From IMG/VR virus record IMGVR_UViG_3300014890_000016, positions 1 through 35,973 of that record: DNA of 35,973 nt, one strand, 5' to 3'. The translations under genes and the position numbers were made by a program. Below the pieces are notes generated by a model, which did no database searches, had not been told where the DNA came from, and saw only the letters and a list, made by a program, of their open reading frames with translations. This stretch comes from a virus. Taxonomy: Duplodnaviria > Heunggongvirae > Uroviricota > Caudoviricetes. Each line of letters starts with the position of its first letter. Within the stretch, counting starts at the first letter, position 1. Shown here piece after piece: positions 4,856 through 34,748 of the stretch.

Positions 4856-4975
4856 GTAATCATCATGCACACACAAAAAAACCGCTTGCCATGCCGCAAT
4901 CAGTCAGGTTACATTTCCGCTGCATCTCATAAAACGGGTGCCGGGATTGGAACCCCGCAGACTAACAGAGCGCAC

Positions 4976-4997
4976 AACCGCGCCAGCGGTTTTTTTG
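4976..4997 (+). terminator. Rho-independent terminator inside the early region
   Basis: AACCGC-gcca-GCGGTT hairpin followed by a run of seven T. Confidence 0.5.
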
Positions 4998-5175
4998 TGC
5001 GTACCGTATCGCCACGTCTTTTTCGCACACGAATTATGGTGGGGCGTACAGGGCCAGCATCAGCTGGGCCGGGTCCTCTGTTAGCCGGTAGTTCCAACCC
5101 TGTGCGTCTCACCACCCTGAGCTTGGAACCTCTGGATGGTGAGTTTTCAAAACTGACTAACAGAGAGGCCACACC

Positions 5176-29919: not shown

Positions 29920-30466
29920 CGGAGAAGCCATTCTGTTACGCAACATAACCGTCAGCGCCACCATGCAACTACCGGATAAAGATATGTCCGGACAGTCAAC
30001 CAGCACCACCAGTGCCCAGCAGGGAAACAAGGCCAAGGAGCTACGCGTGTCGGGTGTTATTGATTTTAACGATGAAGCCATTCTGACCCGTATTTTTCAG
30101 CTTGCAGAAGCTACAGAAAGCAATGGGGCTAAAAAAACATACCGCATCGCCAACGCTACTGCTAAAGCGATTAATATGCGACAGGGTGTTTTTTCCGGCG
30201 GCATTGATGCCACGGAGCAGCAAGGCAAGATGCACTGGCAGGTCACCTTTACTCTCAGGGAAAAATTAAGCGTGCCGGAAAAAGCATCGGCACGCAGTGG
30301 CTCACAGAAAACAATTGCAAAACAGCAGACGCAGAACGGCAGCGAACAGGCGCCAGACAAAGGGATGAATACCCAGGATGCGTTCTGGAAAAATATCAAT
30401 GATGGTATTGGCTCCGGGCTGGACTGGATTGGCATCGGGAGCGTGAAAGAGGAAGGGAAAACATGA
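29891..30466 (+). CDS. Putative tail protein (gpU position)
   Basis: 191 aa directly upstream of and ATGA-coupled to the gpD-like hub gene. By position only. Confidence 0.35.
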   Translation: MTQMIVLALDGEAILLRNITVSATMQLPDKDMSGQSTSTTSAQQGNKAKELRVSGVIDFNDEAILTRIFQLAEATESNGAKKTYRIANATAKAINMRQGVFSGGIDATEQQGKMHWQVTFTLREKLSVPEKASARSGSQKTIAKQQTQNGSEQAPDKGMNTQDAFWKNINDGIGSGLDWIGIGSVKEEGKT

Positions 30467-32160
30467 AATTAACCCAGCGCTGTATGATTAATGGTGAGCT
30501 GGCGGAAATTGCCGATATCAGCCTTGTTCTTACCCTGAATGCTGCCGGGCGCGGCTTCATTTCTGTTAATAATCTGCCCCCCCAAAAAAGCCTTGCCGGC
30601 GCAATGATACAAATTGATCTCGGCCGTAATGGTGAGGCATGGCGCTATTTCTCCGGCTACATTGAGCGCGATCAACCCGCCGAAAATGGCTCACGCCGCC
30701 TTTTTATCCGTGAAGCAGCTGCCGTGCTGGATTTTGATTTCCCCTGCTCCATGCAACATCCAACGTTACGGGATGTACTCGATAATCTGGGTAAACAAAG
30801 CGGCATCGTTTTCATCACGCCAGATGCGGATTACGTCAGCACACCGACACCTTACATCACCCACAGCGGCAGCGGAGCACAACTGCTCAGCCAGTTGGGG
30901 CGAGCATTCAGTATCAGCGATTACGTCTGGCATCCAATGCCGGACGGTTCCGTATTTGTGGGAAGCGCACCGGATTCACGGTTTGCCAGTATTACCATGC
31001 CGGATATTCCGCAACAATACACACTCGGGCAAAGCGGCGGAAACAGCATCGACATCATGTTTATGGAAACTGTGCGACCGGGCGTGAACCTTCCGGCCGG
31101 GCGCATTACCCGTGTAGCCCTCAACAACGAGAAAATGACCCTGACATGGGAACGCCTTACCGCCACGGGTAGCCCTGTTTCCAAATCACCATTACGCAGA
31201 CAGATGGAAACACAGTTCCCGGAACTGGCCAGCGGCACTCTGCATACCCGGCTGGCGCGCGTCATTGCGCCAACGGAATCTGTCACCCTGGGCGATATTG
31301 CCGACAGCTTCCGCCCACGCTACGCCGTCGATGTGCAACTGCTTGATGAGAATGGCAACGATAAAAGCGATACGCCTGTTTATCCGGCTGTACCACTCCC
31401 CGTCCCGATGGCTGGTAGCGAGGCGGGATGTTTTGCCTACCCGCCAGCAGGCACCATCGTGGAAATATCCAACATTGAAGGGCGACCGGATAAACCTGTC
31501 ATCAGGCAAATCTTACCCGCGGGCCATAACCTGCCTGATGTAAAGCCCGGCGAACAGCTGCAGCAACAGCGCGCAGAGGTGTTTCAGCGCGTCACGACTG
31601 ACGGAAGCTGGTACAGAGAAACTGACCAGCAAATCAGGGAGCATTCAGCCAGGCGAACCATTAACAGCGATCAGGAAGAACGCACAACAACAACCAGAAC
31701 AACAACAGTCCAGGCAAACGACATAACCAGTGTTCTTGGTACCAGTAAGCTGATGACAGGCCAGACAGAACACCTTACTACCGGCAATTATGCGATCGCA
31801 GCCGGTGAGCATATCCAGATGGTAGCGCAGAATTTGCTGACTCAACTCAAAGGGGCGATATCCACTATTGAGCATGACCTCACCGAAAACGTGGGAGGCC
31901 GCAGAACATGCAGGGCAGACAGCGGTCTGGAATTTACCGCCCCGACAGTATTTATTGGTCGCGGCGGCTCGCGGGAAAAGTCCGGACTTAACCTGCTGAC
32001 GTTGCTGATCGATATTCTGGACCTGGTTCAGTTGCTGGCCACACATACAGCAAACCACACCCATAGCAACACTGGCACGCCAATGAACAGCAGCGAATTT
32101 GCAGCAGATGCCCTGCAGGCGACGAGCCTGCGCGAAAAATACGGCGACATTATCGCCTGA
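30463..32160 (+). CDS. D: Baseplate hub protein, gpD-like, with C-terminal extension
   Basis: 565 aa; N-terminal region resembles the late-control-D family pattern; C-terminal LLATHTANHTHSNTGTP is His-rich; last gene of the late operon, followed by a terminator. Confidence 0.5.
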   Translation: MKLTQRCMINGELAEIADISLVLTLNAAGRGFISVNNLPPQKSLAGAMIQIDLGRNGEAWRYFSGYIERDQPAENGSRRLFIREAAAVLDFDFPCSMQHPTLRDVLDNLGKQSGIVFITPDADYVSTPTPYITHSGSGAQLLSQLGRAFSISDYVWHPMPDGSVFVGSAPDSRFASITMPDIPQQYTLGQSGGNSIDIMFMETVRPGVNLPAGRITRVALNNEKMTLTWERLTATGSPVSKSPLRRQMETQFPELASGTLHTRLARVIAPTESVTLGDIADSFRPRYAVDVQLLDENGNDKSDTPVYPAVPLPVPMAGSEAGCFAYPPAGTIVEISNIEGRPDKPVIRQILPAGHNLPDVKPGEQLQQQRAEVFQRVTTDGSWYRETDQQIREHSARRTINSDQEERTTTTRTTTVQANDITSVLGTSKLMTGQTEHLTTGNYAIAAGEHIQMVAQNLLTQLKGAISTIEHDLTENVGGRRTCRADSGLEFTAPTVFIGRGGSREKSGLNLLTLLIDILDLVQLLATHTANHTHSNTGTPMNSSEFAADALQATSLREKYGDIIA

Positions 32161-32200
32161 ACACCAGACATAAAAGCCACATAAACGCCCCATCACGCAA

Positions 32201-32226
32201 CGCACGGTCCCGGCCGTGCGTTTTCC
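32201..32226 (+). terminator. Rho-independent terminator ending the late operon
   Basis: CGCACGG-loop-CCGTGCG hairpin followed by TTTT. Confidence 0.5.
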
Positions 32227-32702
32227 TATCCACCACCTGATTAATGCGTTCTGCGTGCCATTCTGGCGCTGTATGCACACACCGCGTAAACGGTGTGACG
32301 TAAAGCGTGAGGTGACGTAAACCGCGCTACCCCCTCCAACCCGCGGGTTTCGTGTCGAAACAGTTTTTCAGTTTTCTGCCGTGCAAAAATGACCGCCAGC
32401 CCGCGCAGTAACTAAGGGAAAAGCGAAGATCTGAAATTTCACGCCGGGAAATTTTTTGCAGTTTTCAGAGAGATTTTTACGATCCCATAAATGGCAGGAG
32501 AAATAAAACAGTATGATATTAAAAGAATTTTCATGCTTTACGCGAGACGAAAAACGATCACGAAAGGATCGCATCAAACAACCATCAAACAAAGAAGCCA
32601 GACGCGGCGCGGACTGCGTAAAATCAAGAGCCAGAATCAAACTGAAAAAAGGATCAATTCCGTGCTCTGATCGCACATGACGATCTACGCAGTAACAGGA
32701 CG

Positions 32703-32728
32703 AAAAAAACCGGCGCGAACGCCGGCGG
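32703..32728 (-). terminator. Rho-independent terminator for a leftward transcript
   Basis: On the minus strand CCGCCGGCG-TTCG-CGCCGG followed by seven T; no minus-strand CDS ends here, so it would terminate a short RNA. Confidence 0.45.
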
Positions 32729-32806
32729 AAGCGTGTATCAAATACGTAATTGGGTAATGTCTAAGGTCGGGAATTTTACATCAGAAAACTGACAAGTCTC
32801 AACGGA

Positions 32807-32836
32807 TTGAAACAAGGGAAAAAACCAGGCTAGAAT
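32807..32836 (+). promoter_or_regulatory. Candidate sigma70 promoter upstream of the hok-like ORF
   Basis: TTGAAA, 18-bp spacer, TAGAAT; about 150 nt upstream of the toxin start codon. Confidence 0.35.
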
Positions 32837-32988
32837 TCGCACGGGTGCCTTTCGGCTGATGGCTGGAGGGAATACCCGAAGGCCGGATGTGGAAAGGCCC
32901 CGGAAAACATTTTTGTTTAACCGAGGCCCTAACCATCTACCCTAGACAAGTGATAGGTTAGCGCCTCCCTGAAAAAGGAGCAAGCGCT

Positions 32989-33129
32989 ATGTCGCAAAAA
33001 TCGCTTACGGCCATTACGTTCTGCGTAACGGCAATCCTCATCATCTGGATGCTGCACGGTTCACTGTGTGAAATACGGATGAGCTTCTGGGGAGCGGAGT
33101 TTGCGGCGTTCTTACAGTGTAAGCAGTAA
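32989..33129 (+). CDS. hok: Hok/Gef-family type I toxin peptide (46 aa)
   Basis: MSQKSLTAITFCVTAILIIWMLHGSLCEIRMSFWGAEFAAFLQCKQ: one TM helix then the SLCEIR motif and an AAFL.CK C-terminus as in HokA/PndA; GGAG Shine-Dalgarno. Below the ORF-track cutoff. Confidence 0.7.
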   Translation: MSQKSLTAITFCVTAILIIWMLHGSLCEIRMSFWGAEFAAFLQCKQ

Positions 33130-33214
33130 GGAAACCGCGACGGGGGAGCAATCCCCCGTCAATCGGTTGCCAGGGTAAGGTCGATAAGGCACCCTATCTC
33201 GCAAACCTGAATGC

Positions 33215-33246
33215 AAAAAGCCCGCAGGATTAATCGCGGGCTTTTT
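33215..33246. terminator. Bidirectional Rho-independent terminator
   Basis: AAAAA-GCCCGC-loop-GCGGGC-TTTTT; ends the hok transcript and the convergent minus-strand gene. Confidence 0.55.
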
Positions 33247-33275
33247 ATTTCCAGAGAGGGTGGTTGGCTTACCGA

Positions 33276-33766: not shown

Positions 33767-33814
33767 CAATTTGTTATCATACCGGCAGCAGTAACCACAT
33801 AAGAGGTGCCGCAA

Positions 33815-34012
33815 ATGACGCAAAATGTACGATGCAAAAATTGCAACAAACTACTTGCCCGCGCCTCATTTCACTACATTGAAATAAAATGTCCGCGCTG
33901 CAAAACACTTAACCAGATAACGAGAGCCATTGAGCACCCCACACACATGAGGAGCTATGACCGTGGGGATCGCAATCCAGCACCAACCAGCACATACACC
34001 GGAACACACTAA
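33815..34012 (+). CDS. com: Com-like zinc-finger translational regulator
   Basis: MTQNVRCKNCNKLLARASFHYIEIKCPRCKTL matches Mu Com (MKSIRCKNCNKLLFKADSFDHIEIRCPRCKRH); AAGAGG Shine-Dalgarno; 3' end overlaps the methylase gene as com overlaps mom in Mu. Confidence 0.7.
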   Translation: MTQNVRCKNCNKLLARASFHYIEIKCPRCKTLNQITRAIEHPTHMRSYDRGDRNPAPTSTYTGTH

Positions 34013-34748
34013 GGTTTATCAGACTGACAATGCCACGCTCTGTCGTGGGAATGCGCTGGAAATATTGCCGCTGATTGAGCCAGAAAGCATTGACGCCTTA
34101 ATCACTGATCCGCCTTACAGTTCGGGCGCGACACATAAGGCCGGACGCACCAACCATGGTAGCCATGCAAAATATCTGAACGGCGAGAGCCTTCACCGCT
34201 TTGATGGGTTCGCGGGTGAAAACATGGACGCCCGTTCGTGGGCTTACTGGACACAATTATGGATGGCACAGGCACACCGCGCAGTCAGGCCGGGCGGTTA
34301 TGCCCTGGTATTTACTGACTGGCGACAACTACCAGCTTTAACCGATGCGTTTCAGGCCAGTGGTTTTACATGGCGCGGCATCATTGCGTGGAACAAGGGG
34401 AGGGGGTCACGAACACCACATACCGGATATTTCCGGCATCAGTGCGAATACATCGTCTGGGGCAGCAAAGGCCATTTAGATAAATCGCCTTCGGGGCCGT
34501 TCGACGGCTGCATGACGTTCCCGGTTATCCCGTCAAAGAAAATGCACCCGACCGGAAAACCAGAAGAACTAATGGCAGAACTGGTCAGGACTGTGAATAG
34601 CGGCGGAACAGTCCTTGATCCTTTTATGGGGTCAGGGACAACGGGTGTGGCTGCACTTAAAGCAGGACGCAAATTTATTGGTATAGAAACCAGTGATCAT
34701 TATTTTGATGTAGCAACACAACGGCTCAAAACGGCGATCGAACCATAA
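33957..34748 (+). CDS. DNA methyltransferase, N6-adenine/N4-cytosine class
   Basis: 263 aa; catalytic DPPY (ALITDPPYSSG) precedes the SAM-binding FMGSGTTG motif; target base not determinable from sequence. Confidence 0.85.
   Translation: MTVGIAIQHQPAHTPEHTKVYQTDNATLCRGNALEILPLIEPESIDALITDPPYSSGATHKAGRTNHGSHAKYLNGESLHRFDGFAGENMDARSWAYWTQLWMAQAHRAVRPGGYALVFTDWRQLPALTDAFQASGFTWRGIIAWNKGRGSRTPHTGYFRHQCEYIVWGSKGHLDKSPSGPFDGCMTFPVIPSKKMHPTGKPEELMAELVRTVNSGGTVLDPFMGSGTTGVAALKAGRKFIGIETSDHYFDVATQRLKTAIEP

What the first reader, a model, noticed from the sequence alone, without database searches (positions are those of the whole stretch)
32700..33250. Hok-family type I toxin with candidate antisense RNA
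A 46-aa ORF has the Hok signature and sits in a locus with a long structured leader. A promoter-like element is on the plus strand, and a strong intrinsic terminator (32703..32728) plus a TTGAGA-N17-TAAAAT promoter are on the minus strand, which would give a short leftward RNA. The sequence GCACGGGTGCC near 32840 is complementary to GGCACCC near 33190, resembling the 5'-3' fold-back pairing of hok mRNAs. No overlapping mok frame was found.
Basis: partly seen in the sequence, partly recalled or inferred. Interest (0 to 1): 0.65.

Follow-up and report, generated by a model that had tools for sequence, protein, structure and literature searches.

The report
Prophage hok/sok toxin-antitoxin cassette, mok-less
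This is an ordinary copy of the well-known hok/sok toxin-antitoxin cassette carried by a P2-like E. coli prophage; its exact toxin peptide is already catalogued and reported toxic, the proposed antisense RNA is in the wrong place, and the one unusual trait is the lack of the 'mok' leader frame.

Summary
ORF 32989..33129 (+) is a 46-aa Hok/Gef toxin: Pfam 29.9 bits against a cut-off of 22, and PHROG 251 at 80.6 bits. The identical peptide is entry 72_1621 in a 2025-26 Hok catalogue, where it falls among the homologues reported toxic.

About 410 bp (32819..33230) form a mobile cassette found in 1750 of 5426 complete E. coli genomes, and in P88-like phages, Stx phages and IncI plasmids. The leader (32843..33002) aligns end to end with Rfam 'sok' RF01794, which models the hok sense strand. 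The score is 47.3 bits (below the gathering score of 59), E 2.6e-9. The mRNA 5' end (32843-57) pairs with 33179-94, like the R1 tac/fbi lock.

The proposed antisense RNA (32802 to 32702, minus strand) lies upstream of the hok start and outside the cassette, so it cannot be Sok. The Sok equivalent lies inside the leader: promoter TTGCTC-17-TAACCT (32983..32955), start about 32948, hairpin 32928..32896.

No mok frame crosses the hok start here. Most relatives also lack one, although Hok is under purifying selection.

Verdict: already known kind, low interest.

The parts
32807..32836 (+). hok promoter: -35 TTGAAA (32807-12), 18-nt spacer, -10 TAGAAT (32831-36)
   Evidence: The -10 position is conserved as TAGAAT, TAGATT, TAAATT or TACATT in relatives that have unrelated upstream DNA.
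32843..33248 (+). predicted full-length hok mRNA, about 400 nt
   Evidence: The start is inferred from the promoter, from position 1 of the Rfam model and from the first base of the 5'-3' helix. The end is inferred from the terminator hairpin. Neither end has been mapped experimentally.
32843..32857 (+). tac-like 5' element
   Evidence: Pairs with 33179-33194 in the full-length fold. Pairs with 32889-32901 once the 3' end is removed.
32889..32901 (+). ucb-like alternative partner of the 5' end
   Evidence: The consensus helix holds in 58 distinct leaders. Two pairs in the 5' leader fold show compensatory changes, CG to UA and GC to AU.
32921..32967 (+). leader hairpin holding the predicted Sok target loop (about 32932-32950)
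   Evidence: This is the positional homologue of the R1 hairpin that carries the mok start. The mean unpaired probability of the loop rises from 0.25 to 0.6 in 3'-truncated folds.
32943..32945 (+). TAG stop in the frame that mok occupies in R1 as I recall it (one base ahead of hok)
32970..32972 (+). second stop (TGA) in that frame, 19 nt before the hok ATG
   Evidence: The close relative L001 has CGA at this position.
32976..32980 (+). hok Shine-Dalgarno AGGAG, sequestered in hairpin 32960-32988
   Evidence: Read from the sequence. Unpaired probability is 0.04-0.21 in all folds. The hairpin is kept through G-U changes in relatives.
32989..33129 (+). hok coding sequence, 46 aa
   Evidence: Median dN/dS is 0.24 over 857 pairs. 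The identical peptide is entry 72_1621.
33179..33194 (+). fbi-like 3' element
   Evidence: GGCACCC is kept in nearly all of 77 variants, with occasional changes that give G-U pairs.
33215..33246 (.). bidirectional intrinsic terminator AAAAAGCCCGC-loop-GCGGGCTTTTT
   Evidence: Read from the sequence. It is the last hairpin of the fold and the terminator part of the weak leader-family matches.
32955..32983 (-). predicted sok promoter: -35 TTGCTC (32983-78), 17-nt spacer, -10 TAACCT (32960-55)
   Evidence: It aligns with the R1 TTGCGC-17-TATCCT through the Rfam model. TAACCT occurs in 75 of 76 variants and TTGNNN in 76 of 76, with spacer 17 in 66 and 18 in 10. Part of the -10 was fixed by my search pattern. 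The sokW promoter-less mutant changes the same GGTTAG motif.
32888..32948 (-). predicted Sok-like antisense RNA, about 55-60 nt: free 5' tail, hairpin 32928-32896, tail UUUCC
   Evidence: -30.5 kcal/mol, z -3.9. In one search the upper stem varies but stays paired in every variant. The stem has a G-U pair on this strand where the plus strand has a C-A mismatch. Both ends are inferred.

Best explanation
Window 32807..33248 is a complete hok/sok-type type I toxin-antitoxin cassette. It is carried as cargo in a P2-like (P88/Xuanwuvirus-related) prophage, between the tail genes and a com/DNA-methylase module.

A sigma-70 promoter (32807-36) makes a hok mRNA of about 400 nt starting near 32843. The full-length mRNA is held inert by pairing of its 5' end (32843-57) with a 3' element (33179-94). 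By analogy with R1, slow 3' trimming removes that partner. The 5' end then pairs with 32889-32901, and the leader hairpin 32921-67 presents its loop.

A short, unstable antisense RNA (Sok) is made from a promoter inside the leader on the minus strand (TTGCTC-17-TAACCT, start about 32948, hairpin 32928-32896). It pairs with that loop and stem and triggers inactivation or RNase III cleavage. If the prophage or its Sok supply is lost or shut off, the stable mRNA is translated into the 46-aa membrane toxin.

What is shown: family membership of the peptide, homology of the leader, the predicted alternative folds, and conservation of the sok promoter motif. What is inferred: the transcript ends, the processing step, the Sok action and the biological role.

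This copy has no mok frame, unlike R1. Therefore either hok translation here does not depend on mok, or this copy is poorly translated.
For: - Peptide: Pfam HOK_GEF 29.9 bits against 22. PHROG 251 'MokW-like host killing' 80.6 bits over the full length. All seven residues reported as more than 80% conserved across Hok (M1, C16, T18, L30, C31, E32, E41) are present, offset by 4 (M1, C12, T14, L26, C27, E28, E37).
- Toxicity: the identical peptide is 72_1621 in Table S2 of bioRxiv 10.1101/2025.08.07.668861. The text says 42 of 45 tested homologues were toxic and names three non-toxic ones; 72_1621 is not among them.
- Leader: RF01794 aligns over its whole length (1-157) to 32843..33002 (+), E 2.6e-9. 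An R1-type locus hits the same model on the hok sense strand, from the mRNA 5' end to the hok AUG, at 87.2 bits.
- Folds.
- Cassette: conserved as a unit in 1750 of 5426 E. coli genomes and in phages and plasmids. PGAP annotates it as Hok/Gef.
- Sok promoter and hairpin: conserved across 76 variants. The sokW promoter mutant maps to the same motif.
- Selection: Hok median dN/dS is 0.24.
Against: - The Rfam score is below the gathering threshold (47.3 against 59).
- The NCBIfam Hok models are far below their cut-offs (34 against 89, and 21.6 against 73).
- The sok promoter hexamers each match the consensus at only 3 of 6 positions, and the promoter scan did not call them.
- The Sok terminator tail is only UUUCC.
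- The 5' motif GGGTGCC and part of the -10 were fixed by my search pattern, so their invariance is partly due to how the set was collected.
- The 5'-3' helix shows only one-sided and G-U changes, with no double compensatory changes.
- Two chimeric relatives have a mismatched 5'-3' helix.
- In R1, premature stops in mok upstream of hok abolish toxicity. This copy has two such stops, and the hok SD stays paired in every predicted fold.
- No expression data exist for this locus.
Confidence: 0.82

Rival explanations
1. The antitoxin is a leftward RNA of about 65 nt, made from TTGAGA-N18-TAAAAT (32802..32773) and ended by the terminator at 32726..32709.
For: Both motifs exist and are correctly oriented, about 47 nt apart. 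The terminator hairpin is invariant in 10 relatives, and the would-be RNA body is fairly conserved.
Against: - The RNA would lie entirely upstream of the hok transcript start and would not overlap it.
- Its complementarity to the hok mRNA is no better than shuffles (-27.4 against a mean of -26.3 kcal/mol; 35% of shuffles do as well).
- The segment is absent from most carriers of the cassette (41-51 genomes against 1750) and from the phage collection.
- The -10 is lost in relatives L257 and L258, and the -35 varies.
- The fold is unremarkable apart from the terminator (z -1.07).
- There is no Rfam match (rseX 21 bits, E 6.9).
Confidence: 0.04
2. The cassette is a decaying, translationally silent hok copy. 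Loss of the mok frame (stops at 32943 and 32970) has uncoupled hok from translation, as with mok nonsense suppressors in R1. The toxin is therefore never made.
For: - In R1, translation of mok up to the hok SD is mandatory, and stops before the hok start suppress killing.
- The hok SD stays paired in all predicted conformers.
- About 24-32 of 77 relatives keep an open frame into hok, in the frame mok occupies in R1 as I recall it. This suggests an ancestral mok.
- The TGA at 32970 is CGA in the closest relative.
Against: - Hok stays intact at 46 aa in 71 of 77 variants.
- Median dN/dS is 0.24, including comparisons between mok-less copies (window against L003 0.18, L009 0.26, L010 0.45).
- The mok-frame state varies even among loci that encode the same Hok peptide, and no start codon or leader ORF is conserved. 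This fits mok being dispensable in this cluster better than repeated decay of otherwise intact loci.
Confidence: 0.25
3. The leftward unit 32802..32702 is an independent small RNA gene of the prophage. It has a free 5' region, a terminator hairpin and a U7 tail, like Hfq-binding RNAs. It is unrelated to hok/sok and is transcribed divergently from the hok promoter.
For: - The architecture, from the sequence.
- It sits at the right-hand end of a conserved stretch of about 640 bp with no annotation.
- The terminator is invariant, with a U-tract of 5-8.
Against: - The promoter is not conserved in two relatives.
- The motif counts are at chance level.
- There is no Rfam family.
- Its terminator sequence is not in the Pas sRNA supplement that is held.
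- All relatives are at least 80% identical, so conservation says little.
Confidence: 0.2

Closest known systems
hok/sok of plasmid R1 (compared here through the R1-type locus L255 on pMTY1886_IncFII)
   Same: A Hok/Gef toxin. The leader aligns to the same Rfam model from the mRNA 5' end to the hok AUG. A 5'-3' lock and an alternative 5' helix are present. The sok promoter sits at the same aligned position with the same 17-nt spacer (TTGCGC/TATCCT in R1-type, TTGCTC/TAACCT here). The Sok hairpin base CCUCG...CGGGG is the same, with the same U-G pair.
   Different: The toxin is 46 aa, not 52. The -35 of sok overlaps the hok SD, and the hok ATG follows only 5 nt after it, against 14 nt in the R1-type locus. 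No ORF crosses the hok ribosome-binding site, whereas L255 has one starting at ATG 294 and R1 requires it. The Rfam score is 47 bits against 87.
hokW-sokW of Sakai prophage 5 (PMC8621323)
   Same: A prophage-borne hok/sok. Judging from the mutagenesis primers, the sokW -10 lies in the same GGTTAG motif. The 5' end begins GGGTGC. The paper shows experimentally that sokW counteracts HokW and that the locus aids phage release.
   Different: HokW is a 51-aa peptide of the HokD/HokC type (MKQQKAM...), a different Hok cluster. The two leaders differ (GGGTGCTTGAGGC there, GGGTGCCTTTCGGC here). The host phage is lambdoid, not P2-like.
Hok cluster 72, peptide 72_1621 (bioRxiv 10.1101/2025.08.07.668861)
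   Same: The peptide is identical. It belongs to a 'high-abundance cluster' and was cloned as LRP137 for the toxicity assay. It is not among the three homologues reported as non-toxic. The paper also reports enrichment of hok in prophages.
   Different: That study analysed the coding sequence only and explicitly left Mok, Sok and the mRNA structure aside. The assay used a constant SD and an arabinose promoter, not the native leader.
chromosomal HokA (NCBIfam NF007290)
   Same: It is the best-scoring curated Hok model (E 2.2e-8).
   Different: It scores 34 bits against a cut-off of 89, so this peptide is not a HokA equivalog.

Membership tests
Hok/Gef toxin family (Pfam PF01848; PHROG 251) | The peptide scores above the curated family threshold. 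| tested here: met
   Pfam 29.9 bits against a gathering score of 22, covering residues 7-44. PHROG 251 scores 80.6 bits over residues 1-46.
Hok/Gef toxin family (Pfam PF01848; PHROG 251) | A small hydrophobic peptide carrying the residues conserved in more than 80% of Hok sequences (M1, C16, T18, L30, C31, E32, E41 in the logo numbering). | tested here: met
   The window peptide has M1, C12, T14, L26, C27, E28 and E37, which is the same pattern offset by 4 (sequence; logo described).
Hok/Gef toxin family (Pfam PF01848; PHROG 251) | The peptide kills or arrests E. coli when induced. | not testable with these tools
   From the literature: the identical peptide 72_1621 (LRP137) is on the test list. 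Only 19_179, 60_1482 and 69_1540 are reported as non-toxic out of 45 tested. The per-clone figure (Fig. S4) was not available to me.
HokA equivalog (NCBIfam NF007290) / Hok subfamily (NF007279) | The score reaches the curated cut-off. | tested here: not met
   34 bits against 89, and 21.6 bits against 73.
[quoted passage not shown] | The hok leader RNA matches Rfam RF01794 at the gathering score. | tested here: inconclusive
   47.3 bits against 59. However, the alignment spans the whole model (1-157) with E 2.6e-9 in the local search. The control R1-type locus scores 87.2 bits.
[quoted passage not shown] | Long-range pairing of the mRNA 5' end (tac) with a 3' element (fbi). | tested here: met
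   15 pairs between 32843-57 and 33179-94 in the minimum-energy fold, z -6.9. The fbi core is conserved in 77 variants. No double compensatory change was seen.
[quoted passage not shown] | An alternative fold of the 3'-truncated mRNA (tac/ucb) that exposes the antisense target. | tested here: met
   In silico only. tac re-pairs with 32889-32901, and the unpaired probability of the loop rises from 0.25 to 0.6. The helix is recovered by RNAalifold on 58 leaders, with 2 compensatory pairs.
[quoted passage not shown] | A cis-encoded antisense RNA (Sok) with its own promoter inside the leader. | tested here: met
   At sequence level only. TTGCTC-17-TAACCT lies at the position homologous to the R1 and sokW promoters and is conserved in 75-76 of 76 variants. 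The hairpin is kept through covarying stems. Transcription itself cannot be tested here.
[quoted passage not shown] | A mok reading frame that starts in the leader and is translated across the hok SD and start. | tested here: not met
   There are stops in all three frames before the hok SD, and TAG 32943 and TGA 32970 lie in the frame mok occupies in R1 as I recall it. 45 of 77 relatives also lack such a frame, and no leader ORF is conserved. The control locus L255 has such an ORF.

The most novel reading that the evidence does not exclude
Hok cassettes of this 46-aa cluster (cluster 72 of the 2025-26 catalogue) are functional without any mok-type leader ORF. In that case Sok cannot act by blocking mok translation, as it does in R1. 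It would have to control hok some other way, for example by RNase III cleavage alone, or by holding the SD hairpin 32960-32988 shut. The open mok-like frame in a minority of relatives would then be a dispensable relic.
Probability: 0.4. Interest if true: 0.4.

Novelty: already known. Interest (0 to 1): 0.2.

Why it matters
As a finding it matters little. The cassette is annotated in RefSeq as Hok/Gef, it is present in about a third of complete E. coli genomes, and its exact peptide has been catalogued and reported toxic. Two modest points remain useful.

1. Rfam's 'sok' model describes the hok sense strand and misses this abundant cluster at its gathering score. Annotation pipelines will therefore label the toxin but not its RNA partner.
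2. Most members of this cluster, this copy included, lack the mok frame that R1 genetics shows to be essential, yet the toxin frame is under purifying selection. If confirmed experimentally, this would show that the textbook mok-coupling step is not universal among hok/sok systems.

Tried and rejected
- My single genome-contig scan used the 14-mer GGGTGCCTTTCGGC. That was a poor choice of pattern, and no cross-genus set was obtained. A three-anchor pattern on viral contigs then worked, but it fixes GGGTGCC, AAAGGCCCCG and TTAGCGCCTC in every recovered locus.
- I tested whether the leftward RNA could act in trans on the hok mRNA. It does no better than shuffles.
- I searched Rfam at a permissive threshold over 32100-32850 and found nothing.
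- I searched Pfam for ORFs in the 640-bp spacer and for the 147-aa downstream ORF and found nothing.
- I checked whether the leftward RNA is one of the prophage Pas sRNAs, which that paper finds within 10 kb of Sok hits. Its terminator sequence is not in the supplement that is held, and those sRNAs are lambdoid.
- I looked for a conserved short leader ORF that could replace mok, starting from the two conserved leader ATGs. Their frames and stop positions scatter widely.
- I looked for papers describing mok-less hok loci and found none among those I could read.

Full report
**What is there.** The ORF at 32989..33129 (+) encodes a 46-aa peptide, MSQKSLTAITFCVTAILIIWMLHGSLCEIRMSFWGAEFAAFLQCKQ.
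- It passes Pfam HOK_GEF (29.9 bits against a gathering score of 22).
- It matches PHROG 251 'MokW-like host killing' over its full length (80.6 bits).
- It falls far short of the NCBIfam HokA and Hok-subfamily cut-offs (34 against 89, and 21.6 against 73).

The only correction is that the minus-strand promoter has an 18-nt spacer, not 17. The 5'/3' complementarity is real and longer than reported. It comprises 9 perfect pairs (32843-51 with 33186-94) plus 6 more after a bulge. Together these form the closing helix of the minimum-energy fold of the 406-nt transcript (z -6.9).

**It is a mobile cassette.** BLAST of the region shows that only window 32819..33230 is widely shared.
- It occurs in 1750 of 5426 complete E. 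coli genomes, often in several copies.
- It also occurs in P88-like (Xuanwuvirus) and other P2-like phages, in Stx phages next to lom, and in IncI and other plasmids.
- PGAP annotates the ORF as 'Hok/Gef family protein' and RefSeq phage records as 'MokW-like host killing'.

The early region of the window (1-9.8 kb) is 94-95% identical to P88-type phages. The cassette sits in a cargo slot after the tail genes. Related prophages carry other cargo in that slot, for example a YafO toxin.

**The RNA parts.** Rfam RF01794 ('sok') aligns over its whole length to 32843..33002 on the plus strand (47.3 bits, gathering score 59, E 2.6e-9). As a control I fetched an R1-type hok locus, L255, whose Hok is 100% identical to R1 Hok. 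It hits the same model on the hok sense strand, from the mRNA 5' end (GGCGCUUGAGG) to the hok AUG, at 87.2 bits. RF01794 therefore models the hok leader, and the window's leader is a diverged homologue of it.

Folding shows the R1-like switch.
- In the full-length RNA the 5' end pairs with 33179-94.
- In RNAs cut before that element the 5' end pairs with 32889-32901.
- In those truncated RNAs the loop of hairpin 32921-67 opens (mean unpaired probability 0.25 rising to 0.6).

RNAalifold on 58 distinct leaders recovers the 5' helix, with two compensatory pairs. It also recovers the hairpin that buries the hok SD.

**Where Sok is.** Through the Rfam alignment, the R1 sok promoter (TTGCGC, 17 nt, TATCCT on the minus strand; sequence) corresponds to TTGCTC (32983-78), 17 nt, TAACCT (32960-55) in the window. 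The identity of the R1 hexamers rests on my own knowledge of R1.
- Among 76 distinct relatives the -10 is TAACCT in 75 and the -35 is TTGNNN in all. The spacer is 17 nt in 66 and 18 nt in 10. Part of the -10 was fixed by my search pattern.
- The experimentally characterised sokW 'promoter-less' mutant was made with primers that change the same GGTTAG motif. This is my inference from the primer sequences.
- A transcript starting near 32948 has a free 5' tail and a strong hairpin at 32928-32896.
- The upper stem of that hairpin differs between relatives but always pairs.
- The stem has a G-U pair on the minus strand where the plus strand has a C-A mismatch. This favours function on the Sok strand.

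It would start near 32766 and end at 32702. It therefore lies upstream of the hok mRNA and points away from it.
- It is outside the cassette and occurs in only 41-51 genomes. It is absent from the phage collection.
- It has no Rfam match.
- It is no more complementary to the hok mRNA than shuffles.
- Its -10 is lost in two relatives.

It is not the antitoxin. Whether it is an independent small RNA remains open.

**mok.** No ORF crosses the hok ribosome-binding site in the window. In the frame one base ahead of hok, which is where I recall R1 mok lying, there are stops at 32943 (TAG) and 32970 (TGA).

Among 77 distinct relatives, 45 have no ORF reaching hok. The others have one in that same frame, but with no conserved start. 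Translation from either of the two conserved leader ATGs ends at scattered positions.

In R1, mok translation up to the hok SD is required, and stops upstream of hok suppress killing. The control locus L255 does have an ORF running through the hok start. Yet Hok is 46 aa in 71 of 77 variants, with median dN/dS 0.24, including between mok-less copies. Either this cluster translates hok without mok, or many copies are silent. I favour the first, but only weakly.

**Literature.** A 2025-26 preprint catalogues more than 44,000 Hok homologues, reports enrichment in prophages, and tested 45 representatives.
- The window's exact peptide is its entry 72_1621, cloned as LRP137.
- Only three other entries are named as non-toxic.
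- That study did not analyse Mok, Sok or the mRNA structure.

The hokW-sokW paper shows that a different, 51-aa prophage Hok is a working type I system that aids phage release.

**Verdict.** The locus is an already known kind, and the peptide itself is already known. The only non-routine aspect is the absence of mok in this copy and in most of its cluster.

Noticed in passing
window 32165..32800: About 640 bp between the last tail gene (30463..32160) and the hok promoter carry no annotated feature in any of the fetched or listed E. coli relatives. The stretch is about 90% conserved in 51 E. coli genomes, absent from the phage collection, and has no Pfam or Rfam match. In some relatives only the first 490 bp or so are kept, and different cargo follows (a hypothetical protein plus a YafO toxin).
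   Followed up: partly
window 32702..32802 (-): A promoter-like site plus a strong terminator (7-bp stem, U7) could give a leftward RNA of about 65 nt with a free 5' region, transcribed back to back with the hok promoter. The terminator is invariant in 10 relatives. The -10 is lost in two of them.
   Followed up: partly
window 4922..4996 and 5032..5119 (+): Rfam matches above the gathering scores to isrK (70.2 bits) and to the C4 antisense RNA (77.2 bits), side by side in the early/immunity region of the prophage.
   Followed up: no
window 33806..34748 (+): A Mu Com-type zinc-ribbon ORF (33806..34012, Pfam 44.5 bits) overlaps the start of an N6/N4 DNA methylase gene (33957..34748, 115.9 bits). 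This com-methylase pair lies just downstream of hok. L006 and L263 show the same pairing.
   Followed up: no
L262 (NZ_CP041433.1) and L263 (NZ_CP046539.1): These are chimeric hok loci. The coding region and 3' end are nearly identical to the window, but the tract from the leftward promoter region (about window 32770) through the hok leader to about 32985 is strongly diverged (5' end GGACGCC or GGACACC). As a result the 5'-3' helix has up to three mismatches. This looks like recombination inside the cassette.
   Followed up: partly
L151 (4318 and 5040) and L231 (5545 and 6000): Two viral contigs each carry two different hok cassettes of this cluster in tandem, 450-720 bp apart.
   Followed up: no
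L255 294..509: In this R1-type plasmid locus, whose Hok is 100% identical to R1 Hok, the upstream ATG is in frame with hok. 'mok' therefore reads as an N-terminally extended Hok rather than an overlapping frame. PGAP annotates only a 33-aa fragment.
   Followed up: no
window 32859..32945 and 32887..32961 (+): There are two short leader ORFs. The first (28 aa) is in the frame I take to be R1's mok frame and is cut by TAG 32943. The second (24 aa) is in frame with hok and ends at the conserved TAG, 30 nt before the hok ATG at the foot of the SD hairpin. Neither is conserved in frame among relatives.
   Followed up: yes
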